64,000 nt of DNA from the NCBI GenBank assembly GCA_049968235.1, contig JBMFRC010000004.1, positions 1 through 64,000 on the forward strand. Reading direction: 5' to 3'. This DNA comes from Candidatus Hydrogenedens sp. GTDB lineage: Bacteria > Hydrogenedentota > Hydrogenedentia > Hydrogenedentales > Hydrogenedentaceae. Positions 7,475-19,903 of the stretch are shown in pieces. A program made the translations under genes and the position numbers. The notes under the pieces were generated by a model, which was not told the DNA's origin, searched no databases, and was given only the letters and a program-made list of their open reading frames with translations. Positions within the stretch are counted from its first letter, which is position 1. Each line of letters opens with the position of its first letter.

Positions 7475-8353
7475 TCAGAAAATGAGTGAAATAAGAACAC
7501 CTAATGGGTCTGCTGGGAATACACTGGGCCAACGAAGAAATTCTACATGTCCATCCATATACAGCACATTACCACCGCCCGGAACATGATTAAATGTTGA
7601 CGCTCCAGCATATACTGCTATCTCATCCCACATAACGGGTATCTCACTTGATGCTTTGGCACTTGCGGAAGGATTGTTAATATCCGTAATCAAAAACCGC
7701 TCTATACCCATTCTCAAACGGGGCAGAGACGCAAGGTCACTTAATTTACCTAAAATCCGCTGTTCTATGGGTAAACTATCATAGTAGAAAATCTCTAACA
7801 TCTTTGTAACAATATCATCTTTAATATACTGATACGCTAAATTAATTATGGTGCCTGCATCCGCATTTACATCAAGCCCAATTTCGGTTAAAGTTCTCGG
7901 AACCGTAATACCGGGGTCGAAAATTATAGAGGGATGTAAAGTCCAGCCAAGATAATAATAACTACCACGTGCTAATCTGCACGGCTCAACCGGTTTGGTA
8001 AGGTCACCATCTTGATGAAATGCTCGTCGAACTGATTCCGCATCGGAATCGGATGGGCAGACACAAATATTTACATCATTCAAATATTCAGGATAAACAG
8101 AAGGTCCATTAAAAGTTGCATCACGCGAAAAACCTCCATCACAGTTGTATAACTTTATAGGTGGGAACATTTCTCCCTTTGCCTCATTTGCATACATATT
8201 GAAAACCAGTCCCATCTGTTTCAGATTGTTCTGACAACTCGACCGTCTCGCAGCTTCTCGGGCTCTTGCCAGTGCAGGCAATAATATTGCCGCTAAAATC
8301 CCAATAATGGCAATAACGACCAATAACTCAATAAGCGTAAAACCTTTTTTCAT
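7475..8353 (-). CDS. Prepilin-type N-terminal cleavage/methylation protein with a DUF1559 H-X9-DG domain.
   Basis: 292 aa. The N-terminus [27 protein letters not shown] is a class III signal peptide. The C-terminal [17 protein letters not shown] is the H-X9-DG signature typical of Planctomycetes, Verrucomicrobia and Lentisphaerae. Confidence 0.85.
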
Positions 8354-8609: not shown

Positions 8610-11600
8610 TCAAAATATACAGGTAAGAAGCCAGTCGTCTTCTATTTTGTTGAGGTTGGGAGATAGGTAGATGAGATTTGATTGCTTATCCCATTTGTCA
8701 TATTCAGTGCTGTTGAGCAGGACCTGTTTGATAGGTTTATTGTAAGGGTGTCGGATTCTCAATATTACCTTGCGGAAATTTTTATCTTTCGTTAGATGTA
8801 TTGTTCCGATTATCTCATCATTATTTATATTTGACTGTAAACTATAACTTACTTTACCGAAGTAGGTATCTGCATTTTTAATTGTAATCTGCTTTCCTGC
8901 TTCGAGCCAGTAGGATGGAATAAATGGTGCTAACCAGAGGGTATCTTTATCTTCACGGAGGAACATTTTTCGTGTTTGAATGAGGAACCAGCCGGTTTCG
9001 TGTGTTTTGTTCCATGCTCCGATATTGTGGAAATGTTCCCAGAACGATAGGTTTTCTGTGTTCAGTAAAGAAGGAATGGCATTGAAATAGGAACGGATAA
9101 AGGGTTTTACTTCGTCTCGCAGGGCGTACGTTTCTGCTATTCGTGTATAATAGGGCTGTATCTTTGAAAATCCACCTAAATTGAATGGGTCTTGCTTGTT
9201 CCCTTCTTCCGGATAATCACCTTCCCCGCTAAAGGCGAACCAGTAATCGGAATGAAGGAACCAGTAATCTTCCATGTGCTGGACAATGTTTTCCGCATCG
9301 TTGCTGTATGGGTCCAGAATACCGAGAGGGATCAGATGATGCGGTCCCAATTCGACATCATACGCCCAACTTCTGCCGGCATCTTCTCCGGGAAACATTT
9401 CACCGGAGGTACCAAAGGTATATAAGTTGGGTGGGTAGGGTAATATCCATTTTCCGTTTGAAAGCGGTAATACGGGTGTTCTCTCCTTATTCCATTCAAA
9501 TGCCCTCAGAATAGATACGGTTAATTCCTTTGCTCCTCTGAGATATTTATCTGCTAATGGGTAGTTTATATCTTTCAATATGGAGCCTATCCCATGAAGT
9601 CCCGCACAAAAATGTCCCTGTATAGCGAACCTATATGCGAAACGATTCCAATCTGCACCGACGCCCGGTGGCATAAGTCCGTATTCCGGTATTCTCTCCC
9701 CATCGATATCCACCTTTTTTGTCTTCTCGCACTGTGCCATTATCCAATCACAAACACGGGAAAGTTTATCTGCATATCTTGATAGCCATTCTTTGTCTCT
9801 CGTAAGTTGGTAATGCTCGGCTAATGTCCATAAGTGCCAGCCTGTTCCCATCAGTGTATAACCCGTGGTCAGATACCCTGCACGGTTATATTTACTGATA
9901 AAATATTCCAATGATTTCCGTGAAAACTCATGCCAGCCCATAAGGTCCATTCCATATACAATCGAATGTGCTTCACTTTCTAATGGACCGTATGACATGG
10001 AGGCTATCCATGGTGCAATGAACTTTCCTTCAGAACGACCTGCTATCAAGCAGTGAACCTGAGATGCTTTGATAACATTATTCAGCAAGGGTTCGGGTAT
10101 GCTTATTTCTATTGAGTCTGCAAATAACTTTTTCCAGTATTCCACTGTTTTTTCCAGGAGTTGCTCTTCTTCTATGTGTTCGATTTCGTTTGTATTCATA
10201 TCCGTATCGGATGGGATGATAACACATAACTTGATAAAAGAACCTGAAGATACGGGATGATTTATGAAGATATTTTCTCCATTTATCTCAGCGATTGCAT
10301 TCTCTATTTTGCAAATACCTAATATCTTGTCATCCTCTTTTACAAATATAATCTGATTTTTCTTTTCTAATTCTGCTTTTATTCCCTCTCTTTTATGGGA
10401 GTAAAAAGAAAGAGAAAAATCGGAATGTTTCTCTTTCCCATCGTCATTTTTCATTTCGAATTGTGAGATACACAGTGATTTTTTCTCTTTATAGGGTGCA
10501 ACAAAGGTTCTTGACCAATAGGTAATACCATCGTCATTTTTTTCTATAACAGGCACCGGCATCCAATCTTGATAAAGAGTGCGTTTTAATTTGTCGCTAT
10601 TCCCCATACGAACCTTCATAAAAAAGTCGTTAAACTGGATAGAACCTTCTCTCTCCACGATGAATTTATTATTATCACATGCGAGGGACAACATTGTGGG
10701 ACCATTGTCTTGAACGGGATGATGAATTTTTTTCATTGCATTTGAAAAGGTTTGTTCCGGAAGTGAACGGACACTATCAAGAACACTTTGTTTGCCTTCT
10801 ATCGTCTTTTTGTATTCATTTATCGTAAGAGAGGAAGATTGCAAAACAGCAAAGACACCTACAGAAGGCACATACACACAGGGATGGGTTAATATATCTT
10901 CTATTGCAATACAAAGTTTTGTATCTGGCAGATGAATCCATAACAGGGTTCTATCCCCTTTATCACTTCGAGGGATGCTGTGAAGGAGATTAAGTGTAAG
11001 TGGCTCAGAAAGTTTCCATAATTGACACAACGAATTTGACGACTCTAAAAATGTTCCATTATAAATCTGGAGCGTTGCCTGAGTATTTGAATCGCCTTGT
11101 TCTTTTTCCAATCTTATAACAGTTTTGTCCCAGTATGAATTAGTATATGCATTCAAATTTTTAATATATAGTGGCTTATCACTTTCAAAAATCCACCTGA
11201 TTTTCTCGGTGCCTTTCCAGATAAAAAGATTATCCCGCCATGGGATATGTAAAGAACATTGGTTCCCTTTTACTTCGACCTTGCCTTCTACATTTTGCCA
11301 TTTCCCCTGCCATGGAGATTCGCCTGTCCATGCTTCCACTTTGATTTGTGATGGTATATTATTATCAGCAAATTCAACTGAAAGGTCTGTTAATTTTCGT
11401 CTTTCATACCATCGCAATCCTATACATTTTACTCCCTTATAATCCGGAACCTCATAGTTTCCTTCTTCCCGGGGCTGTAGTTTTGTCTCTAAAGATATAT
11501 CCTCTGCCGGGAACTCCTCTACTCTGGAACAATGAGCCCCTTCATACCGCTTTGGGTCGCATGTAATTACATCTGCAAACAAGGCAATGTCCAGATTATT

Positions 11601-12146
11601 GGTTATATTCTCCTGTCTCGCATTATCTTCTAAAACCAATTTTGCATTAGCCCAATTCGCACAATCACAGGTAATGCCATCATTCCCAGCTTTAACTACA
11701 AGACGCAGTACACGGGCGTTATTCAAGTCAATCTTAACCGGCACAGGAGAATCTAATTCGCGTATTACACCACTGTCCCAGCGTTTTTCACCATCCACAA
11801 ATATCTGGAAAACCACGCTACCTGTATTTGTCCCACTTTGCCTCTGAACTCCTGCCTCACACTCGAAATACTTATATTGACTGTTTAAATCAACTATAAT
11901 CTCCCCCGAAGCATGATGTCCTATACCTTTTTGATACTTCTTTTCTCCTATTTGCAACTCCATTGGAGTTTGCCCGGATGAATGTGCGGATACATCCCAG
12001 CCTGTCTCTCCCCAACCCTGCGTAATTGAAACAATACGCTCCGGTATATCACTCAAATATATTATCTTATCCGCATAACACGGTAAAATTATAATAAATA
12101 AGGGAACGATTATCAGTCCACACATTTTCAATACACTTCTTGTCAT
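8610..12146 (-). CDS. Large secreted carbohydrate-active protein. It has an N-terminal NPCBM-like carbohydrate-binding module and a C-terminal alpha/alpha-toroid glycosidase-like region.
   Basis: 1178 aa with a signal peptide. The NPCBM-like segment runs GIGHHASGEIIVDLNSQYKYFECEAGV ... DCANWANAKL. The C-terminal region is helix-rich and Trp/Tyr-rich, typical of six-hairpin glycosidases. The glycoside hydrolase family is not assignable by eye. Confidence 0.5.
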   Translation of the reverse strand: MTRSVLKMCGLIIVPLFIIILPCYADKIIYLSDIPERIVSITQGWGETGWDVSAHSSGQTPMELQIGEKKYQKGIGHHASGEIIVDLNSQYKYFECEAGVQRQSGTNTGSVVFQIFVDGEKRWDSGVIRELDSPVPVKIDLNNARVLRLVVKAGNDGITCDCANWANAKLVLEDNARQENITNNLDIALFADVITCDPKRYEGAHCSRVEEFPAEDISLETKLQPREEGNYEVPDYKGVKCIGLRWYERRKLTDLSVEFADNNIPSQIKVEAWTGESPWQGKWQNVEGKVEVKGNQCSLHIPWRDNLFIWKGTEKIRWIFESDKPLYIKNLNAYTNSYWDKTVIRLEKEQGDSNTQATLQIYNGTFLESSNSLCQLWKLSEPLTLNLLHSIPRSDKGDRTLLWIHLPDTKLCIAIEDILTHPCVYVPSVGVFAVLQSSSLTINEYKKTIEGKQSVLDSVRSLPEQTFSNAMKKIHHPVQDNGPTMLSLACDNNKFIVEREGSIQFNDFFMKVRMGNSDKLKRTLYQDWMPVPVIEKNDDGITYWSRTFVAPYKEKKSLCISQFEMKNDDGKEKHSDFSLSFYSHKREGIKAELEKKNQIIFVKEDDKILGICKIENAIAEINGENIFINHPVSSGSFIKLCVIIPSDTDMNTNEIEHIEEEQLLEKTVEYWKKLFADSIEISIPEPLLNNVIKASQVHCLIAGRSEGKFIAPWIASMSYGPLESEAHSIVYGMDLMGWHEFSRKSLEYFISKYNRAGYLTTGYTLMGTGWHLWTLAEHYQLTRDKEWLSRYADKLSRVCDWIMAQCEKTKKVDIDGERIPEYGLMPPGVGADWNRFAYRFAIQGHFCAGLHGIGSILKDINYPLADKYLRGAKELTVSILRAFEWNKERTPVLPLSNGKWILPYPPNLYTFGTSGEMFPGEDAGRSWAYDVELGPHHLIPLGILDPYSNDAENIVQHMEDYWFLHSDYWFAFSGEGDYPEEGNKQDPFNLGGFSKIQPYYTRIAETYALRDEVKPFIRSYFNAIPSLLNTENLSFWEHFHNIGAWNKTHETGWFLIQTRKMFLREDKDTLWLAPFIPSYWLEAGKQITIKNADTYFGKVSYSLQSNINNDEIIGTIHLTKDKNFRKVILRIRHPYNKPIKQVLLNSTEYDKWDKQSNLIYLSPNLNKIEDDWLLTCIF

Positions 12147-12258
12147 TCGATTATCTCCTTATAGTGAATCATCTAAATATCAGAACAGATTATGTTTTAA
12201 AGAGTCTTGTGTTTAGAAACTTCGTTAAACTAAAATTCCTCCATTCTAAAAAGGGTTT

Positions 12259-12669
12259 TTAATGAAATACAAACAGAAATATTGTTCCGCGATGAATTTT
12301 CATACACTTAATAAATTGGTAATAATTTTTATCAATTTGTCCTTCTCTTTCGTATCGCTTATAGCAATTAATAGAAATTAATAGAGCCAGTACTGTTAAA
12401 GCATTATCATTTATTTTCTTTTTACCTGTCTTGTGATAGAGATAATGGTTTTTATCTAAAAAATAAACGAACAAAAAAGAGGCAATTCTTTTATTACCAT
12501 CTACGAAAGGATGGTCCTTAATTATAAAATATAAGAGATGTGCGGATTTTTCTTCGAGTGATGGATACAAATCTTTACGGTCAAAACTCTGATATATATT
12601 GCCCAATATTGCCTTGAATTTTTCCCCAACTTCCTGACCAAAAAGTATGCCTGCTTCTTTTTTTGCCAT
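12259..12669 (-). CDS. Doc-type Fic domain (death-on-curing toxin family). Probably the C-terminal half of a split RhuM-Fic/Doc gene.
   Basis: 136 aa. HPFVDGNKRIASFLF matches the Doc active-site motif HxFx(D)GNKR. The reading frame stays open upstream to 12765 and overlaps the end of the preceding ORF. Confidence 0.7.
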   Translation of the reverse strand: MAKKEAGILFGQEVGEKFKAILGNIYQSFDRKDLYPSLEEKSAHLLYFIIKDHPFVDGNKRIASFLFVYFLDKNHYLYHKTGKKKINDNALTVLALLISINCYKRYEREGQIDKNYYQFIKCMKIHRGTIFLFVFH

Positions 12670-12746
12670 TAAATCTTTCTTAATTTCCTCTATAACTTTC
12701 CGTGCTCCCTCATAGCCTAAAATAAATTTCTCTTTTGCCGACTTTA

Positions 12747-13316
12747 CTATCTTAAGTTTTCTCTGTCATACTGTTCCAACAAAGTCAAAGTTTTAGCATA
12801 GTTAGCCAGTAAGTTTAAAATTTCCTGCTCTTGTCCAGCAAGTAATTCATGTTTTGCTTTTTCTTGTAAAAGTGATATTGCTCCGTGGAGTTCTTCAAAC
12901 TGCTTCTGTGATCGTAGAAGCCTTTCTTCATTTATCGTATAACCTTTAACCAGATGTTCTTTAAGCGTTTTAGTTGCCCAGATACGGAATTGAGTACCGC
13001 GTAAAGACTTAACTCTATAGCCTACAGAGATTATTACATCAAGGTTGTAAAAATCTATTTCTCTTTCTACCTGTCTTTTACCCTCTTTTTGAACTATTCG
13101 GAATTTCCGAATAGTTGAATTTTTATCAAGTTCTCTTTCTTTATATATATTTTTTATATGTTCATTGATAGTTGGTATCCCTTTATCAAAAAGTATTGAC
13201 ATCTGTTTTTGAGTGAGCCACACAGTTTCATCTTTAAGTCGAACTTCTAATTGAGGTCCTTCCTTTGAACTATAAATTACAATTTCACCTTTTTTGAAAT
13301 CGTCTTGTTGCTTCAT
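12747..13316 (-). CDS. RhuM-family domain protein. Probably the N-terminal half of a split RhuM-Fic/Doc gene.
   Basis: 189 aa. YNLDVIISVGYRVKSLRGTQFRIWATKTLKEHLVKGY is the conserved RhuM core. The ORF stops 77 nt before the Doc ORF start, in a different frame. Confidence 0.65.
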   Translation of the reverse strand: MKQQDDFKKGEIVIYSSKEGPQLEVRLKDETVWLTQKQMSILFDKGIPTINEHIKNIYKERELDKNSTIRKFRIVQKEGKRQVEREIDFYNLDVIISVGYRVKSLRGTQFRIWATKTLKEHLVKGYTINEERLLRSQKQFEELHGAISLLQEKAKHELLAGQEQEILNLLANYAKTLTLLEQYDRENLR

Positions 13317-13541
13317 TGGGAATATTCCTATTCACGCTTAATTAAATATCGGATTTAGGTAACCTTTCTATTTTGTCGTAATAGTTTGATGTTTTTTTTA
13401 TGGAACTGATGTAATCGTATCTACTTTTTATCTTAACATAGTAGTCCACTAATCATATACATAGGATGTGCGAGATAAACACACAGGTAAGAATGTTGAT
13501 AATACCTTTTTAATTACAAGTAGTTTGGCAGGCAAATAATG

Positions 13542-15350
13542 TTAGTACACATATAATTTTGTGGGGATGTTGCCATTCCAGCGGGACCATGTATCGTAAT
13601 TTCTATTAATTGTTTCACTGTTGATGGATTTAATCACCCAAATTCCCGCAGGTGCATTAACATCGTATTCGATTTTATTATCATCTAAAAACACGAAGGA
13701 TGAATATATTTTTTCTCTTGAAGGATTTTTGTTGATGAGTTCTGATAATAATTTGTCGGGTGAAAGGTTGTTTCTCTCGGGTAAATACAATAAGCCCAAT
13801 TTCTCATCATTATAGACACAAACATACAAACTGCCTGCACATTCAGGTGCAAAAACGAACCACGATTCCTTTTGAGCAAAGGGTGTATATTGGGATGGAA
13901 TATGTACGGGGGAATTTCCTACGGCAAATCTTTTGTAAACGCCTGTATTGTTCCAGCACCACCATTTACCCCTCCCTTTTATATGGAAACACTTATTAAT
14001 ATCTATTTCCCTATCATTCAATAATAAGGTCGTAGGTCTCGGAATAATCATGGCACGCAGACCTCTATATACTCCTCCTGCACTAATCAGATATTCTGGA
14101 CCTCCACTATATATTTCAGGAGTTCCGTTTTCCCCATAACCTATCTGAACAAAATAATCATAGGGCTTTTCAATTGCCCATTTCTTCACAATAGGAGGGA
14201 CTGTGTATGTAGATAAAACAGCAAAAAGTACTTGAGAAGAACGGGTCATTTCTTTGCCCGGTGCATCATCACTTTCAGGCAGACACCACCATCGCATTAA
14301 TGCCGTGTGTGGGTCAATCACCAATGATGTTGTATTTGCATATTCAAATCTACGACGGAAAGGGGCACATCTGCGAAACTGTGAACTGCCTAACGCGTAT
14401 TTCCAATTGATGCTGTCCAGAACCTTATGTGCTCTAACCTTCACCTCCGCCGAATCAGGAAATTCTTCCAGATTTAGTAATGCCTGAACCGCATATAACA
14501 AATAAGGAATGGAATTAAACTCATATTCGCCGTTCCAAAGCATTTCATCAAGATAAGTAACAAGCCATTTTTCCAAACCGTTGTTTTTGTTATCATGTTC
14601 AGGCTTGCCGGGAGTAGTTGTAGAATTCCCATATTTAAACAACCACTGATTTTTCAAGTATCTGCTACTTTCCGTCATCAATTGGTGATTTTCCGTGTCG
14701 CGAATCCAGCCCAATGACCTTGGCACCATCTCCCGTGGTTGCCCTCCTTCTTCTACCAAAAGGACTTTTAGTAAATGCTCTAAGGTCTCCGGATATATCA
14801 GGTCCTGATTATGTCCAAAAAGATATAGAATTTTGGTAAGCACTACCTCCGTAAAATCATAATCGCCTTTATATCCGAACCAGGAAGAACCACTGCCCGA
14901 CCACGGCTCCAACTGTTGTAGATATTCATTTACTTCCTTGATTTCCTCTCCACAAGCAAGTTTTGCTAAACATACATATGGGGAATGTCCTTTTCCATAC
15001 TTTTTCCAATCTAATATGGGTTTTCCTGCAATTGACTGGATATACTCCTTGATATAATTAGATTTGTAATCAATCTCATCCTTTCCATCTTCCACAAATA
15101 TATTTTCATCCCATTGTGGACCTGCTTCACCCCAGGATAATGGGGTAATTGATTCGCGTCCTGCACCTAATAATTCATCAACAAATAAAGGTAAAAGAAA
15201 TAAGGGAATTAAGAGGAAAGTAAGCCCTGAAAAAGTGTAAAAAATTAATCTACTTAGCAAGAAGAAAACTTTCATTTTCAATTTTATAGAATTACTTAGA
15301 AAAATCCATTTATACCTGCAAATATTATCAGGAATAAGCCTATAATCCAC
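13542..15350 (-). CDS. Signal-anchored secreted hypothetical protein, possibly a polysaccharide lyase or hydrolase accessory.
   Basis: 602 aa as in the ORF track. The start is more likely the internal MKVFFLLSRLIFYTF... near 15275. The hydrophobic N-terminus is followed by a Trp-rich soluble domain. No recognisable catalytic motif. Confidence 0.4.
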   Translation of the reverse strand: MDYRLIPDNICRYKWIFLSNSIKLKMKVFFLLSRLIFYTFSGLTFLLIPLFLLPLFVDELLGAGRESITPLSWGEAGPQWDENIFVEDGKDEIDYKSNYIKEYIQSIAGKPILDWKKYGKGHSPYVCLAKLACGEEIKEVNEYLQQLEPWSGSGSSWFGYKGDYDFTEVVLTKILYLFGHNQDLIYPETLEHLLKVLLVEEGGQPREMVPRSLGWIRDTENHQLMTESSRYLKNQWLFKYGNSTTTPGKPEHDNKNNGLEKWLVTYLDEMLWNGEYEFNSIPYLLYAVQALLNLEEFPDSAEVKVRAHKVLDSINWKYALGSSQFRRCAPFRRRFEYANTTSLVIDPHTALMRWWCLPESDDAPGKEMTRSSQVLFAVLSTYTVPPIVKKWAIEKPYDYFVQIGYGENGTPEIYSGGPEYLISAGGVYRGLRAMIIPRPTTLLLNDREIDINKCFHIKGRGKWWCWNNTGVYKRFAVGNSPVHIPSQYTPFAQKESWFVFAPECAGSLYVCVYNDEKLGLLYLPERNNLSPDKLLSELINKNPSREKIYSSFVFLDDNKIEYDVNAPAGIWVIKSINSETINRNYDTWSRWNGNIPTKLYVY

Positions 15351-15513
15351 ATGGCAATGGTTGTAGGGGTAATATAGATGTAATTTTCTTCATCACTACT
15401 GGTTTGCTTGAAAAATTCCTTCATATCTAACATAGATAATTTCCCTTTATTTATGGTTTATGTATTTTATGGATACCATATATTATATATATCCCCTCAG
15501 ATTTTTTTTCGTT

Positions 15514-17907
15514 CTATTGTTTTAACAACCACATTTCACAAATTCGAGAGTGTTGTCGCCAATTCTTTTTTAAATCGTCTATGGGAAGTGTCCATTTTAC
15601 AATAATTTCTCTATCCTGAATACTTTCTAATGGGATAATATAGTCTTTAAACTCGCCTAATTCAATTACTTTTTCATCGGAACTATTCATTTTTTTTCCA
15701 TCAATCATAATCTGCGGTTTTCCCAACCCTATGATACGAAGGATATATGTAGCACTGGGTTCTAATCCTTGATATTGTGCCTCACCGAATTCCAAAGAAC
15801 TCAACCAACTAATTCTTTTCCTTGTTTTTCCATTATCAAACCACCACAAAGTAGGTTCTTGCCATGCTTCTTCTGCAGGATTGGTATAATGAATTTCACA
15901 CCGCTTTATATGAGGTGATTTTCCTGTATTTCCTACATCATCATAAAAAGAACCGTATCCTGGTGTTTCCCAGTGGGCAATTATGTTTAATCGTTTTATT
16001 TTTTCTTTTTCCGAACTTAATTTTCGTATATACTGAAATTGGTCTTCCAACCACCAACGATTATTTAAGGGTATGTCAATATAATCTAATGATGCACCTC
16101 GTTCCCCTCCAATGGCTCCATATTTTTCCACACTGGATTGTAATCCGATACTTTTAAATAATGCGTCATATAAATCTGCAATTTTCTCTTTTAAATCCGT
16201 AGATATCGGTTCTGACATTGTTTTATTTAAAATGTTCATTGCCTTTTCCATCACTACTTCTGCACCCATTTTCTCCGCATTTTTTAATACCTGATATGCC
16301 CTTTGTTCCAGTCCTTGTTCGTAGATAACCTTTCTTCGTATATATACATCGTAATAAGCACGCACAAGGCACATTTGCCAGCGCCAATTGTTCTTTAATT
16401 GAGATGCTTTTTGTTCCAACTCCTGCCACAATTTTAGTGTTCCTTCAATGGCTCCATTATCAACAATACTTCCCCGCCAATTATTTTCTAAAGACAAGAT
16501 TCCTTCTGCTGATAATTCGGCAATTTCGCTACTAAAAAACACATTAGAATATTCAATTAAAACATCTCTAACTTTTTGTTCTGGATTCCAGCCCATTGCA
16601 CTCCATATTATTTTATTTACATCGTCATGAATACCATCTGAATAAGTAATAAAGCCATCACAATAAGGTTGAAACCAATTATGAATATATGCATACTGAA
16701 CAGGTCTCGGATTAATTCCTTCTCTTCCAATCACCGATGAGAAAGCAATGTCCCACCACGGTACTGGATATTGACAGAGTTTATTATGGGTTATATCGGG
16801 ATACATTCGAAGTTTATATTCCGATGGTAAATTTTGCCGTAAATATGCTATGGGTGGACTGGAAGGTCCCTCACAAAGTCCTCCCATCCATTGAGGTTTT
16901 TTATTCTTGATATAATCAAAGACAAATTCAGATTGAGCAGTAGTAAACCCCTGTAAAGATAACCATATTCTTGCTTCTGGATGTAGCGGAATTAGCAATT
17001 TTGACAGCTCTTCTAAAAAAGGCAGAACTAATTCTGGCGGATTATCTCCCGGGTCTCCTCCGGGGAAAAACACACCTGTTATAACCGGGCAATCTTTGTA
17101 TAATTCCTCATGTCTTTTTAACATATCCTCTCGTTTCTCTTTGTCGTTTAAATCAAAATCTGCAGGGGTCCATACCCAGTAATCTAATCCATATTTTTTA
17201 CATATCTCACTTATTGCCCGGTTCATTTCTCTTCGAGAAACAGGCATTAAAGGAGCAGGTCGGTCATCTTGAAAAGGGATATTTTCAATACTATTGACCC
17301 CAAAAAAAGTTAATTCCCTTATATACTGGTCATATTGTTCAATACTCCATGCATCATAAGAATTTGCCTGTGCCCGGTAACCCAATTGATGCCCCCGTAT
17401 GGGAGATATAGGTGATTCTATAATGTTCACTGGAATTTCTATCTTCAATGAATTCGGAGAATATTTCATTATCCTTAACAATTTTCCTACTCCGAATAAA
17501 ATCCCCCGATTGTCTTTTCCTATAATCCAGATTCTATTTTTCTCTTGCACTTTTTCATTAAATATTGCGAAACCTTCCGATTTAATCTGCTTTAACTTGT
17601 CTTTGGGAAAAGAAATTAAATGTTTTTTGTCAACAGGCGATAATGAATTAATATTTGCAAGTAATATATAGTCGCTATTGGGTAAAATTTCTGGAGTATT
17701 TTGTAATAAAATATGAGTCCGTTTCTCAATTTCTTCCGAGAGAACTCTAACAATATTTTGTAAGACATCATCTTTCTCATTACCAATAAGGCAAATTTTA
17801 AAATTATTTAAATCTAATATAGAGCCATTCGTTTCAGCATTTACATTTGTCCACAGAAGACATAAAACACACAGGATAAACATTTGTAAAAAGATAATTT
17901 TTTTCAT
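15514..17907 (-). CDS. Secreted glycoside-hydrolase-like protein. It has a TIM-barrel-like core and a C-terminal helical domain. The family is uncertain.
   Basis: 797 aa. The signal peptide reads MKKIIFLQMFILCVLCLLWTNVNA. An acidic cluster FFPGGDPGDNPPE sits in a beta/alpha region. It lies 49 nt from the neighbouring secreted-protein gene on the same strand. Confidence 0.4.
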   Translation of the reverse strand: MKKIIFLQMFILCVLCLLWTNVNAETNGSILDLNNFKICLIGNEKDDVLQNIVRVLSEEIEKRTHILLQNTPEILPNSDYILLANINSLSPVDKKHLISFPKDKLKQIKSEGFAIFNEKVQEKNRIWIIGKDNRGILFGVGKLLRIMKYSPNSLKIEIPVNIIESPISPIRGHQLGYRAQANSYDAWSIEQYDQYIRELTFFGVNSIENIPFQDDRPAPLMPVSRREMNRAISEICKKYGLDYWVWTPADFDLNDKEKREDMLKRHEELYKDCPVITGVFFPGGDPGDNPPELVLPFLEELSKLLIPLHPEARIWLSLQGFTTAQSEFVFDYIKNKKPQWMGGLCEGPSSPPIAYLRQNLPSEYKLRMYPDITHNKLCQYPVPWWDIAFSSVIGREGINPRPVQYAYIHNWFQPYCDGFITYSDGIHDDVNKIIWSAMGWNPEQKVRDVLIEYSNVFFSSEIAELSAEGILSLENNWRGSIVDNGAIEGTLKLWQELEQKASQLKNNWRWQMCLVRAYYDVYIRRKVIYEQGLEQRAYQVLKNAEKMGAEVVMEKAMNILNKTMSEPISTDLKEKIADLYDALFKSIGLQSSVEKYGAIGGERGASLDYIDIPLNNRWWLEDQFQYIRKLSSEKEKIKRLNIIAHWETPGYGSFYDDVGNTGKSPHIKRCEIHYTNPAEEAWQEPTLWWFDNGKTRKRISWLSSLEFGEAQYQGLEPSATYILRIIGLGKPQIMIDGKKMNSSDEKVIELGEFKDYIIPLESIQDREIIVKWTLPIDDLKKNWRQHSRICEMWLLKQ

Positions 17908-17956
17908 ATAGTAACCTTCATAGATAGGTCTATTGTTTCAGCAATTTTAGATATTC

Positions 17957-19903
17957 TTATCTATGATACACTTTACTTTTCCGCAAAACAAAAATAAGCA
18001 ATAAGGTGGGGAATATAAGCAGGAGGGAATTATTAGTAATGCTTAAACCATGCGAGACATGTAAATAGACTTTTGGAGTTTCCACTACATTCAAATCATC
18101 TGAAACATGACACCAATACCAGCCTGAATCTTCAACGGATAAATCTTCAATATAAAGTTCCTGCCCTGATACATACGGAATAATTGTTGGATTGGGACAA
18201 AGATAATCTTTGCAATAATACCACTCATAGCCTATATTCCCCTGTGCTCCTTCTACATGAATAGTAAAAAGTTGCGATTCTCCAACAATTTTATTAATAT
18301 ATGTTTCCCCTTCTATCCATGCTATTAATTCGCTATCACCCTCTAAATCCCCCTCTCCTTCAAATATTCCTTCGATACTCCCTTCAGGTTCTCCATCTAT
18401 AATTCCTTCACTTTCAGGGCTCCCTTCTGATTCTCCTTCTATAATCCCCTCGCCTTCAAAAATACCTTCCGCCTCTCCATCTATAATTCCTTCACCTTCT
18501 GTAGGAATTCCTTCTGGAATTCCCTCGCCTTCACCATATCCCTCATTTATCAAGGTAAAATATGCTACATAATTTTTGTTCTCAATTATATTTGTATCTT
18601 TCCTGTTGGGAGTTAATAAACCATCTGACCAATGGTCAAAAAGATATCCACTATCCGCTACTGCAATTACTTCAGTTCCATCATTACCACGCATGATATT
18701 TTGCGTTGCATTTCCCAAAATATTTCCTCCAATATCCGCAGTATAAGTTACTGTAAATATCGGTGGTCTTTTTAATTCTGTAATTTTATAACTTATTTTC
18801 CCTCCTGCATAATAAAAATCCCCACCCACATATAAATTCCCTTGAGAATCGAACACCAGAGATCTGATTTCTTTATTTGAGCCATTTACTCCTGATGTTA
18901 TGCTACGCCAGTTACCTGAATACCACCATGCTAACCCATTTGCACTTATATTACCACCTGCAATGGAAAAATTACCTCCAATAAAAATAGATTGTGATGA
19001 TTTGGGTAAAATTGAATAAACGATGCCATTTACCCCGCCATCTAAAGAAGTCCACGAAGAACCATCCCAAATAGATATATTACTCACATTCACCCCACCT
19101 GCTTGTGTAAAACTTCCACCTGCATACAATCTACCCGTTTCATCTACCGCAAGAGAGTACACAGGTCCGTTAATTCCAGTTCCAAGGGAATGCCAATTCG
19201 TTCCATCCCAGCGGGCTATATTATTTGCAGAAACATTACCTGCATACTGGAATTGTCCCCCTGCATATATATTTCCATTAGAATCCGATGTTAATGACAA
19301 AACATAAGGAGAAGTGCCACCGCTCACACCCAAATAAGGTTCTACCCATTGAGAACCATTCCAATATGCAATCCGATTAATAGGTGTAGAACCGGACTGA
19401 GTAAATTTGCCTCCTACAAAGACTGTCCCATTATTTGTAATAGTTACCGTATATACAGCATCATTAAAGCCACTTCCTACCGCTACCCAACTCGAACCAT
19501 TCCACTTTGCCACTCGATTTCGGAGATTTGAACCCGAATAGGTAAATGAACCCACTGCATAAATTTCACCCCCTGTGGATATACATATTTTTTCTACCGC
19601 ATTATTAAAACCCTGTCCCATGGCTTGCCAATTTATTCCATTCCACCTCGCTACTCGATTTGCACTTACGCCATTTATTGAAGTAAAAGTGCCTCCACAA
19701 TAAACAATATTGTTATTATCTATGCCAACAGAGGTTATTAATCCATCTGTCCAATTAGGACTTAAAGGTTGCCAATCTTCATCAAGATAATTTGGGATAT
19801 CTTCTGAATATATAAAGGTCGAAATAATTCCAATAAAAACGACTATACCCAATCGTAGAAAAAATAGCATTCGTATCCCTTTCCTTTCATTTTTTCTGTT
19901 CAA
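17957..19903 (-). CDS. Secreted multidomain protein with four parts. They are W-containing beta-propeller repeats, a Listeria/Bacteroides-type B-repeat, an EG-rich acidic spacer plus Ig-like domain, and a C-terminal hydrophobic-basic tail.
   Basis: 648 aa. About 6 repeats of the pattern I/VARWNG-W-LG-G-NG-VY-L--D--GN-Y-GG-F. The B-repeat element reads GYLFDHWSDG. The spacer reads GEGEGIPEGIPTEGEGIIDGEAEGIFEGEGIIEGESEG.... The Ig-like signature reads CKDYLC...EDSGWYWCHV. The C-terminus reads LLLIFPTLLLIFVLRKSKVYHR. Confidence 0.6.
   Translation of the reverse strand: MNRKNERKGIRMLFFLRLGIVVFIGIISTFIYSEDIPNYLDEDWQPLSPNWTDGLITSVGIDNNNIVYCGGTFTSINGVSANRVARWNGINWQAMGQGFNNAVEKICISTGGEIYAVGSFTYSGSNLRNRVAKWNGSSWVAVGSGFNDAVYTVTITNNGTVFVGGKFTQSGSTPINRIAYWNGSQWVEPYLGVSGGTSPYVLSLTSDSNGNIYAGGQFQYAGNVSANNIARWDGTNWHSLGTGINGPVYSLAVDETGRLYAGGSFTQAGGVNVSNISIWDGSSWTSLDGGVNGIVYSILPKSSQSIFIGGNFSIAGGNISANGLAWWYSGNWRSITSGVNGSNKEIRSLVFDSQGNLYVGGDFYYAGGKISYKITELKRPPIFTVTYTADIGGNILGNATQNIMRGNDGTEVIAVADSGYLFDHWSDGLLTPNRKDTNIIENKNYVAYFTLINEGYGEGEGIPEGIPTEGEGIIDGEAEGIFEGEGIIEGESEGSPESEGIIDGEPEGSIEGIFEGEGDLEGDSELIAWIEGETYINKIVGESQLFTIHVEGAQGNIGYEWYYCKDYLCPNPTIIPYVSGQELYIEDLSVEDSGWYWCHVSDDLNVVETPKVYLHVSHGLSITNNSLLLIFPTLLLIFVLRKSKVYHR

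What the first reader, a model, noticed from the sequence alone, without database searches (positions are those of the whole stretch)
12259..13316. RhuM and Doc-type Fic domains lie on two adjacent ORFs that one frameshift would fuse
Bacterial RhuM-Fic/Doc proteins are typically single polypeptides of about 330 aa. Here the RhuM core (12747-13316) and the Doc active-site domain (12259-12669, motif HPFVDGNKRIA) sit on the same strand and are offset by one frame. The Doc frame is open back to 12765, so it overlaps the RhuM stop at 12747. A single indel would therefore recreate the full gene. Three readings remain open. It may be a decaying toxin gene, a sequencing indel, or a natural two-part arrangement in which the N-terminal domain is made separately.
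Basis: partly seen in the sequence, partly recalled or inferred. Interest (0 to 1): 0.5.

Follow-up and report, generated by a model that had tools for sequence, protein, structure and literature searches.

The report
Broken RhuM–Doc gene: a pseudogene
The two neighbouring ORFs are the pieces of one ordinary RhuM–Fic/Doc gene that has been broken twice (a 1-base deletion and a 10-base duplication) and is decaying in this Candidatus Hydrogenedens lineage, so it is a dead gene, not a new two-part toxin system.

Summary
Window 12300-13316 (minus strand) is a single RhuM/Fic/DOC gene (PADLOC candidate PDC-S23) with two frame-breaking lesions. One is a 1-nt deletion in an A-run (12757-12760; intact homologues read GAA AAA CTN). 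The other is a perfect 10-bp tandem duplication (12366-12385) inside the Doc domain. Undoing both gives a 335-aa ORF that aligns without gaps, at 79% identity, to 334-aa intact proteins. Undoing only the first gives 352 aa with a nonsense tail and no last conserved helix. Both lesions recur, base for base, in a second MAG of the same species, whose RhuM part also carries a stop codon. At the same chromosomal site, a sister Hydrogenedens lineage holds a more decayed relic with two stops, a frameshift and a ~750-bp deletion that removes the Doc part. All 80 homologous loci examined from other species are uninterrupted. Verdict: a young pseudogene, ordinary and of low interest. One side observation is unexplained. 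Inside the RhuM ORF (13092-13116) lies a perfect 12+1+12 palindrome. Its pairing, but not its sequence or encoded peptide, is conserved across rhuM genes of many phyla (94.6% of cells paired; 54% in shuffles).

The parts
12300..13316 (-). Whole relic of one RhuM-Fic/Doc gene (1017 bp). After adding 1 nt and removing 10 nt it reads as a 335-aa ORF ending in TGA at 12300-12302.
   Evidence: The repaired protein is 79% identical over 99-100% of its length to 334-aa proteins and matches PADLOC PDC-S23 at E 5e-126.
12747..13316 (-). ORF 1, 189 aa: the RhuM N-terminal core plus a helical linker, ending prematurely at TAG after the frameshift.
   Evidence: PF13310, E 2e-29. In the second MAG this ORF is cut to 108 aa by a TAA stop.
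12757..12760 (-). Lesion 1: an A4 run where intact homologues have A5 (GAA AAA CTN, ...E-K-L...). This is a 1-nt deletion that moves the rest of the gene into the -1 frame.
   Evidence: L083, L085 and L086 all read GAA AAA at this codon pair.
12259..12669 (-). ORF 2, 136 aa: the middle of the Doc-type Fic domain (residues 218-314 of the intact protein) followed by 38 out-of-frame residues. The frame is open upstream to 12765.
   Evidence: Its ATG corresponds to a variable I/V/M/T position in homologues, not to a conserved start.
12487..12513 (-). Fic/Doc active-site motif HPFVDGNKR, of the Doc type HxFx(D/N)(A/G)NKR.
   Evidence: H269-R277 invariant in alignment A1. The motif type is from established knowledge of P1 Doc.
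12366..12385 (-). Lesion 2: a perfect tandem duplication of TCTATTAATT (10 bp), a +1 frameshift after residue 314 (LALLI|A).
   Evidence: the only non-low-complexity 10-bp perfect tandem duplication in the 64-kb window. (homologues carry a single copy: CTT TTA ATT GCT).
12300..12365 (-). Stranded true C-terminus (AISDTKEKDKLIKIITNLLSV*). It encodes the last conserved helix and is now out of frame with ORF 2.
12973..13087 (-). A 115-bp mosaic tract holding 31 of the 33 differences between the window and the second MAG. The other MAG's version carries a TAA stop that is shared with the sister lineage.
13092..13116 (.). Perfect 12+1+12 palindrome AACTATTCGGAA-A-TTCCGAATAGTT inside the RhuM coding sequence (codons ~67-75). 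Its pairing is conserved across the rhuM family.
   Evidence: (I2).

Best explanation
This is a recently inactivated copy, a pseudogene, of a single-polypeptide RhuM-Fic/Doc gene in a Candidatus Hydrogenedens genome. Intact family members combine three parts: an N-terminal RhuM core (predicted winged-helix-like), a long helical linker, and a C-terminal Doc-type Fic domain. By analogy with P1 Doc, that domain is inferred to be a phosphotransferase toxin. The family is an untested candidate single-gene anti-phage or toxin module, often nested in restriction-modification operons. Here the gene stands alone between glycan-related genes and has been hit at least twice. A 1-nt deletion in an A5 run splits RhuM from Doc. 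A 10-bp replication-slippage duplication cuts off the last helix of the Doc fold. Neither ORF is expected to give the family's activity. ORF 1 lacks the effector domain. ORF 2 lacks the first and last helices of the Doc fold and has no conserved start. Shown here: the lesions, their reproducibility, the intact state of homologues, and the further decay in relatives. Inferred: loss of function, and the biochemical role of the intact family.
For: (1) There are two independent frame-breaking lesions, and repairing both restores a gapless 335-aa match to intact 334-aa proteins. (2) A second MAG (GCA_049971155.1, L001) aligns to window 8673-15727 with 0 gaps, so both lesions are real. That MAG also has an in-frame TAA in the RhuM part. 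(3) In six assemblies carrying the identical neighbour protein P0123, and in a seventh (L096) carrying the related P0127, a sister Hydrogenedens lineage shows a RhuM relic at the same site, between the same two genes. The relic has TGG->TGA at W33, a 9-bp and a 1-bp deletion, the same TAA stop, and a ~750-bp deletion (window 12164-12913 absent) that removes the linker and Doc. (4) All 80 homologous loci from other species are uninterrupted, and the 120 best database proteins are full length. (5) No intact copy closer than 79% identity exists among 5.8 billion protein clusters. The 136-aa ORF forms a cluster of one. (6) The repaired protein shows no excess of changes at conserved positions (rank 23-25 of 116), so the lesions are young. 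(7) The 64-kb window otherwise holds long intact ORFs of up to 1178 aa.
Against: No reads, transcripts or proteins were available, so residual expression of either fragment cannot be excluded. Stand-alone RhuM-core proteins of about 150-210 aa exist as separate PADLOC PDC-S05 models, so the 189-aa fragment could in principle keep some activity. The coding sequence is otherwise well preserved, which also fits very recent or conditionally tolerated disruption.
Confidence: 0.9

Rival explanations
1. Sequencing or assembly artefact: the real genome carries an intact gene and the indels are errors.
For: Lesion 1 lies in a homopolymer (A4 versus A5), a typical error site. The source is a metagenome-assembled genome.
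Against: Both lesions are identical in a separately assembled MAG that aligns with 0 gaps over 7 kb. Lesion 2 is a 10-bp tandem duplication, not a usual error type, and is unique in the window. Neighbouring 2-3.5-kb ORFs are intact. The sister lineage shows real, more advanced decay at the same site in seven assemblies from NCBI, JGI and ENA.
Confidence: 0.04
2. Functional natural split: the RhuM fragment and the Doc fragment are made separately and work together, for example as regulator plus toxin.
For: Lesion 1 falls in a predicted non-helical stretch (residues ~184-200) between the linker helices and the Doc domain (low-confidence model). Short stand-alone RhuM-core families exist (PDC-S05). 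NCBI annotates the 136-aa ORF as a death-on-curing toxin. The sequence is otherwise well conserved.
Against: The Doc ORF starts at residue 218, after the first predicted Fic helix (201-217), and loses the last helix (318-333) to lesion 2. TIGR01550 scores 37.2, below its cut-off of 38.65, and aligns only model positions 35-98 of 122. The upstream sequence AAGAAAGATTTAATG lacks a GGAG-type ribosome-binding site like the AAGGAG before the neighbouring NPCBM gene. The RhuM ORF carries a stop codon in the second MAG. No homologue shares the layout.
Confidence: 0.05
3. Programmed recoding: ribosomes shift -1 near 12757 and +1 near 12375 to make the full-length protein.
For: The two shifts cancel (net +9 nt), so the C-terminus returns to the original frame.
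Against: There is no X XXY YYZ slippery heptamer at AGA GAA AAC TTA. The second shift would have to occur within about 12 nt that hold no slippery motif. Homologues have no frameshift at either place. Given two frameshifts of +/-1, they cancel by chance about half the time (inference).
Confidence: 0.01

Closest known systems
RhuM/Fic/DOC fusion proteins (NCBI name 'virulence protein RhuM/Fic/DOC family protein'; PADLOC phage-defence candidate PDC-S23)
   Same: Same domain order and length once the two lesions are repaired. The repaired protein is 79% identical to the best hits and matches the PDC-S23 model at E 5e-126 over positions 4-324 of 327. The RhuM-DOC fusion and its placement in R-M neighbourhoods were described by Anantharaman et al. 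2013 (PMC3710099). The PDC systems are untested 'guilt-by-embedding' candidates (bioRxiv 10.1101/2024.01.29.577857).
   Different: Here the reading frame is broken twice, and the gene is not embedded in any R-M or defence operon. The three closest intact homologues examined (P0005, P0036, P0053) sit next to a PF01555 N6/N4 DNA methyltransferase gene within an operon that also encodes a ResIII helicase. In P0005 and P0053 the res gene overlaps the RhuM-Fic gene by 4 bp.
P1 Doc toxin of the Phd-Doc type II toxin-antitoxin system
   Same: It has the Doc-type Fic motif HxFx(D/N)(A/G)NKR. The best structural match of the homologue model is P1 Doc (3k33_A, TM 0.63 normalised to Doc). There is a weak sequence match to a solved death-on-curing protein (9vzc, E 1e-4).
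   Different: No Phd antitoxin gene is present. In this family the Doc domain is the C-terminal part of a 335-aa protein. TIGR01550 scores below its cut-off. The local 136-aa ORF is truncated at both ends of the fold.
BifA of Streptococcus equi subsp. zooepidemicus (RhuM + Fic protein)
   Same: It has an N-terminal RhuM domain plus a C-terminal Fic domain, and sits on a low-GC, horizontally acquired island (PMC6529018). The relic here also has lower GC (0.28-0.36) than its neighbours (0.36-0.45).
   Different: BifA is described as a virulence effector acting on host moesin. That has no bearing on an environmental Hydrogenedens genome, and no direct sequence comparison was made here.

Membership tests
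RhuM/Fic/DOC fusion family (PDC-S23) | N-terminal RhuM core (start of PF13310) | tested here: met
   E 2e-29, residues 67-143 of ORF 1.
RhuM/Fic/DOC fusion family (PDC-S23) | C-terminal Fic/Doc domain with the HxFx(D/N)(A/G)NKR motif | tested here: met
   PF02661 E 1e-11; HPFVDGNKR at 12487-12513.
RhuM/Fic/DOC fusion family (PDC-S23) | One uninterrupted polypeptide of about 330 aa | tested here: not met
   two frame disruptions. It is a member by descent but not an intact member.
RhuM/Fic/DOC fusion family (PDC-S23) | Full-length colinearity with the family profile | tested here: met
   (PDC-S23 positions 4-324 of 327, after in-silico repair). (gapless alignment).
RhuM/Fic/DOC fusion family (PDC-S23) | Embedded in, or adjacent to, R-M or other defence genes | tested here: not met
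   the neighbours are NPCBM, GH67-like, beta-propeller and unknown proteins, and the window has no Mod/Res hits. Among 80 distant homologues this context also holds only for a minority.
RhuM/Fic/DOC fusion family (PDC-S23) | Anti-phage or toxic activity | not testable with these tools
   The PDC systems are themselves untested candidates (bioRxiv 10.1101/2024.01.29.577857).
Phd-Doc type II toxin-antitoxin system | Stand-alone Doc toxin of about 125 aa with a complete fold | tested here: not met
   TIGR01550 scores 37.2 against a cut-off of 38.65 and aligns only model positions 35-98 of 122. ORF 2 lacks the helices at both ends.
Phd-Doc type II toxin-antitoxin system | Upstream small Phd-type antitoxin gene | tested here: not met
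   the only upstream ORF is the RhuM fragment.
Programmed ribosomal frameshift gene | Slippery site at the junction, and a frameshift conserved in homologues | tested here: not met
   no slippery heptamer, and 80 of 80 homologous loci are in one frame.
Pseudogene (decaying relic) | Frame-breaking lesions relative to intact homologues, reproducible across assemblies, with further decay in relatives | tested here: met

The most novel reading that the evidence does not exclude
The relic still carries a perfect 25-nt palindrome (13092-13116) that turns out to be a family-wide feature of rhuM genes. At the same codons, genes from many phyla keep a 10-14-bp perfectly complementary inverted repeat, while both its sequence and the encoded peptide change freely. 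The most novel reading is that this is a selected nucleic-acid element inside rhuM coding sequences, not described in the papers or Rfam searched here. The lack of G-U tolerance points to DNA-level pairing, either a hairpin/cruciform or a symmetric site. It might act in recombination or gene conversion between rhuM alleles, or in regulation. The 115-bp mosaic tract that begins 5 nt downstream in this locus could be its footprint. A non-selective alternative is that template-switch 'quasipalindrome correction' keeps the two arms identical.
Probability: 0.4. Interest if true: 0.65.

Novelty: already known. Interest (0 to 1): 0.15.

Why it matters
For annotation, the 136-aa ORF is deposited as a 'type II toxin-antitoxin system death-on-curing family toxin'. 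It should instead be merged with the RhuM ORF and flagged as one pseudogene, and it should not be counted as a toxin-antitoxin or defence system. Biologically it is a small, clean example of an orphaned defence or toxin cassette being lost along different routes in two related Hydrogenedens lineages. The only element of wider interest is the family-wide intragenic palindrome seen in passing. If selected, it would be an unrecognised structural feature of a very widespread gene family associated with restriction-modification systems.

Tried and rejected
- An exact look-up of the 189-aa ORF product found nothing on record.
- A scan of JGI metagenome contigs, with a pattern that would match either the duplicated or the unduplicated allele, found nothing.
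- The genome-contig scan did not return the window's own species.
- The AlphaFold model of homologue P0001 is of low confidence (pLDDT 59.7, pTM 0.34). I used it only for rough helix boundaries. The Foldseek hits are weak (best E 0.04).
- A profile search of PDB sequences gave only one weak Doc hit.
- tblastn with Mod/Res proteins from close homologues found them next to only 3 of 80 distant homologues and nowhere in the window. The idea that the relic is the remnant of a type III R-M operon therefore has no support.
- A test for recombination breakpoints at the palindrome across homologues was uninformative, because only 11 sequences were gaplessly alignable.
- Rfam gave no family at the palindrome, and literature searches for RhuM with palindrome, hairpin or inverted repeat found no description.
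- An antisense-terminator reading of the palindrome was rejected as a general explanation, because GC-rich homologues lack the flanking A/T run.

Full report
**The observation**

On the minus strand, ORF 12747-13316 (189 aa) matches Pfam Virulence_RhuM (E 2e-29). ORF 12259-12669 (136 aa) matches Fic/DOC (E 1e-11) and contains HPFVDGNKR. The Doc frame is open upstream to 12765, one codon after a TGA, so it overlaps the RhuM stop at 12747-12749.

Translating all three frames shows that the RhuM frame re-opens near the 3' end. There it reads ...LLIAISDTKEKDKLIKIITNLLSV*, which is the conserved C-terminus of the family. Two lesions are present.

- Lesion 1 is at 12757-12760. The sequence reads GAC AGA GAA AAC TTA AGA TAG, whereas intact homologues read GAx xxx GAA AAA CTA/TTA (Y-D-x-E-K-L). 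This is a 1-nt deletion in an A5 run.
- Lesion 2 is at 12366-12385. TCTATTAATT is present twice in tandem, whereas homologues have CTT TTA ATT GCT once. It is the only perfect, non-low-complexity 10-bp tandem duplication in the 64-kb window.

Adding one A and removing one 10-mer gives a 335-aa ORF ending at TGA 12300-12302. Repairing lesion 1 alone gives 352 aa with a nonsense tail. So 'one frameshift would fuse them' is incorrect.

**Family**

The repaired protein finds thousands of relatives. The 120 best hits are 307-345 aa, all carry PF13310 plus PF02661, and identity reaches 79% over 99-100% of the length. The alignment is gapless. PADLOC's PDC-S23 model matches end to end (E 5e-126), and PDC-S05 models match the N-terminal part. 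NCBIfam gives only a sub-threshold DOC_P1 hit.

A low-confidence AlphaFold model of homologue P0001 (pLDDT 59.7) suggests the following layout:
- a small beta/winged-helix-like N-terminal region;
- long helices at 104-183;
- a non-helical stretch at 184-200;
- a helical Doc domain at 201-333.

Its best PDB match is P1 Doc (3k33_A, TM 0.63 on the Doc length, E 0.04). Lesion 1 (residue ~187) falls in the linker. The ATG of ORF 2 is residue 218, after the first Doc helix. Lesion 2 (after residue 314) removes the last helix.

**Are the lesions real?**

The exact 136-aa product is encoded on a second assembly (GCA_049971155.1, contig JBMFLO010000127.1). That contig aligns to window 8673-15727 with 33 mismatches and no gaps, so both indels are reproduced. 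The source names identify the organism as Candidatus Hydrogenedens sp. The ORF is deposited as a death-on-curing toxin. The window otherwise contains many long intact ORFs.

No intact near-identical allele exists in the 5.8-billion-cluster protein collection. A JGI metagenome scan for either allele found nothing.

**Comparative evidence for decay**

The neighbouring 602-aa gene has homologues at 90% identity or more in other Hydrogenedens assemblies. In seven such contigs, from NCBI, JGI and ENA, the same two flanking genes are separated by 636 bp instead of 1395 bp. That spacer is a RhuM relic starting at the same ATG offset. It carries four kinds of damage:
- TGG->TGA at W33;
- a 9-bp and a 1-bp deletion;
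- a TAA stop in GTQ->VT*;
- a ~750-bp deletion (window 12164-12913 absent) that joins RhuM codon ~134 directly to the ribosome-binding site of the NPCBM gene.

The second MAG of the window's own species carries the same TAA stop, within a 115-bp tract (12973-13087) that holds 31 of its 33 differences from the window. The gene is thus dispensable and is being lost along different routes in related lineages.

The repaired window protein shows no excess of changes at conserved positions (rank 23-25 of 116). The two indels are therefore young.

**Context**

The three closest intact homologues whose contigs I examined lie within R-M operons. Each is adjacent to a PF01555 DNA methyltransferase gene, and the operon also encodes a ResIII/YagJ helicase. 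In two of the three the res gene overlaps the RhuM-Fic gene by 4 bp. This fits two published accounts. Anantharaman et al. 2013 note that RhuM-like domains are often fused to DOC and sit in R-M neighbourhoods (PMC3710099). The PADLOC candidates have a 'guilt-by-embedding' origin (bioRxiv 10.1101/2024.01.29.577857).

Among 80 more distant homologues from species-representative genomes, R-M parts are neighbours only in a minority, and most copies are solitary. All 80 are uninterrupted, with the caveat that these are the best-scoring 80 of 593.

In the window the relic is flanked by NPCBM, GH67-like and beta-propeller genes. No Mod/Res homologue occurs anywhere in the 64 kb. Its GC content (0.28-0.36) is lower than that of its neighbours.

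**Mechanism and verdict**

The intact family is most likely a single-polypeptide toxin or abortive-infection-type module. In it a RhuM sensor or DNA-binding part would control a Doc-type Fic phosphotransferase. This is inferred from domain homology and published context and is untested.

This locus is a pseudogene of that family (confidence 0.9). The rivals have little support: assembly error (0.04), a functional split pair (0.05) and programmed frameshifting (0.01). It is an ordinary finding. Its practical consequence is an annotation correction.

**Side observation: a conserved palindrome**

Inside the RhuM ORF, 13092-13116 is a perfect 12+1+12 palindrome. At the same codons, the 87 homologous loci almost always have a perfect 10-14-bp inverted repeat with a 1-5-nt A/T centre. 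Yet the DNA and the peptide differ widely, for example STIRKFRIVQ, SVCSILEHTA, ATTEESSVVQ, SNVQKMHIAN and TSVEIFDRSE.

I tested this on an ungapped alignment of 81 distinct sequences. Three sequences were left out: two were mis-centred and one has no palindrome. The results were:

| Measure | Observed | Control |
|---|---|---|
| Cells forming standard pairs | 94.6% | 54% in shuffles (0 of 500 reach it); 21-44% with slid partners |
| Pairs with changes on both sides | 11 of 11 | |
| Covariation score | 1.03 | 0.27 in shuffles |

G-U pairs (7 of 891 cells) are no commoner than other mismatches. That points to DNA-level complementarity rather than a typical RNA stem.

The palindrome also occurs in RhuM paralogues, detected by their N-terminal RhuM region, elsewhere in these loci. 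It is present as well in eight finished plasmids from eight genera, Bacteroides to Pseudonocardia, though imperfect in two of them. Neither Rfam nor the paper library describes it. I cannot explain it. Candidate explanations are a recombination or regulatory element, or arms kept identical by template-switch correction.

Noticed in passing
window 13092-13116 (also L003-L089 and L097-L104 at the equivalent codons): There is a perfect 12+1+12 palindrome inside the RhuM coding sequence. Across rhuM genes of many phyla the pairing is conserved (94.6% of cells paired against 54% in shuffles; all 11 pairs covary), while the sequence and the encoded peptide change. There is no G-U preference, no Rfam family and no paper found. 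It remains unexplained.
   Followed up: yes
window 12973-13087 versus L001 2641-2755: 31 of the 33 differences between the window and a near-identical second MAG sit in one 115-bp tract that starts 5 nt after the palindrome. The other MAG's version carries a TAA stop shared with the sister lineage. The sister agrees with L001 at 13 of the differing sites and with the window at 7. This is either a gene-conversion or recombination tract, or a metagenome-assembly chimera in the most conserved RhuM segment. It was not resolved.
   Followed up: partly
L090-L096 (sister Hydrogenedens contigs), about 8789-9424 in L090; corresponds to window 12147-13541: An orthologous RhuM relic lies at the same site with two stops, a frameshift and a ~750-bp deletion ending just before the AAGGAG ribosome-binding site of the NPCBM gene. 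Identity to the window is mosaic: 84% in the upstream spacer, 61% over RhuM codons 1-76, and 98% over window 12914-12970.
   Followed up: yes
L083-L089 (contigs of the closest intact homologues): The intact RhuM-Fic genes lie within R-M operons. Each is adjacent to a PF01555 N6/N4 methyltransferase gene, and the operon also encodes a ResIII/YagJ helicase. In L083 and L086-L089 the res gene overlaps the RhuM-Fic gene by 4 bp. In some contigs Peptidase_M78/DUF4411, GmrSD or patatin genes lie nearby.
   Followed up: partly
window 8610-19903: The relic sits in a run of same-strand genes for large secreted or glycan-related proteins: NPCBM-domain (1178 aa), an unknown 602 aa, GH67-N-like (797 aa) and beta-propeller/Ig (648 aa). 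A DUF1559/N-methyl prepilin-like gene lies at 7475-8353. None of these is related to defence.
   Followed up: no
window 12259-12669: The public annotation names this truncated 136-aa ORF 'type II toxin-antitoxin system death-on-curing family toxin' (MGC8737772.1 / MGC9053451.1). It should be annotated as part of a pseudogene.
   Followed up: yes
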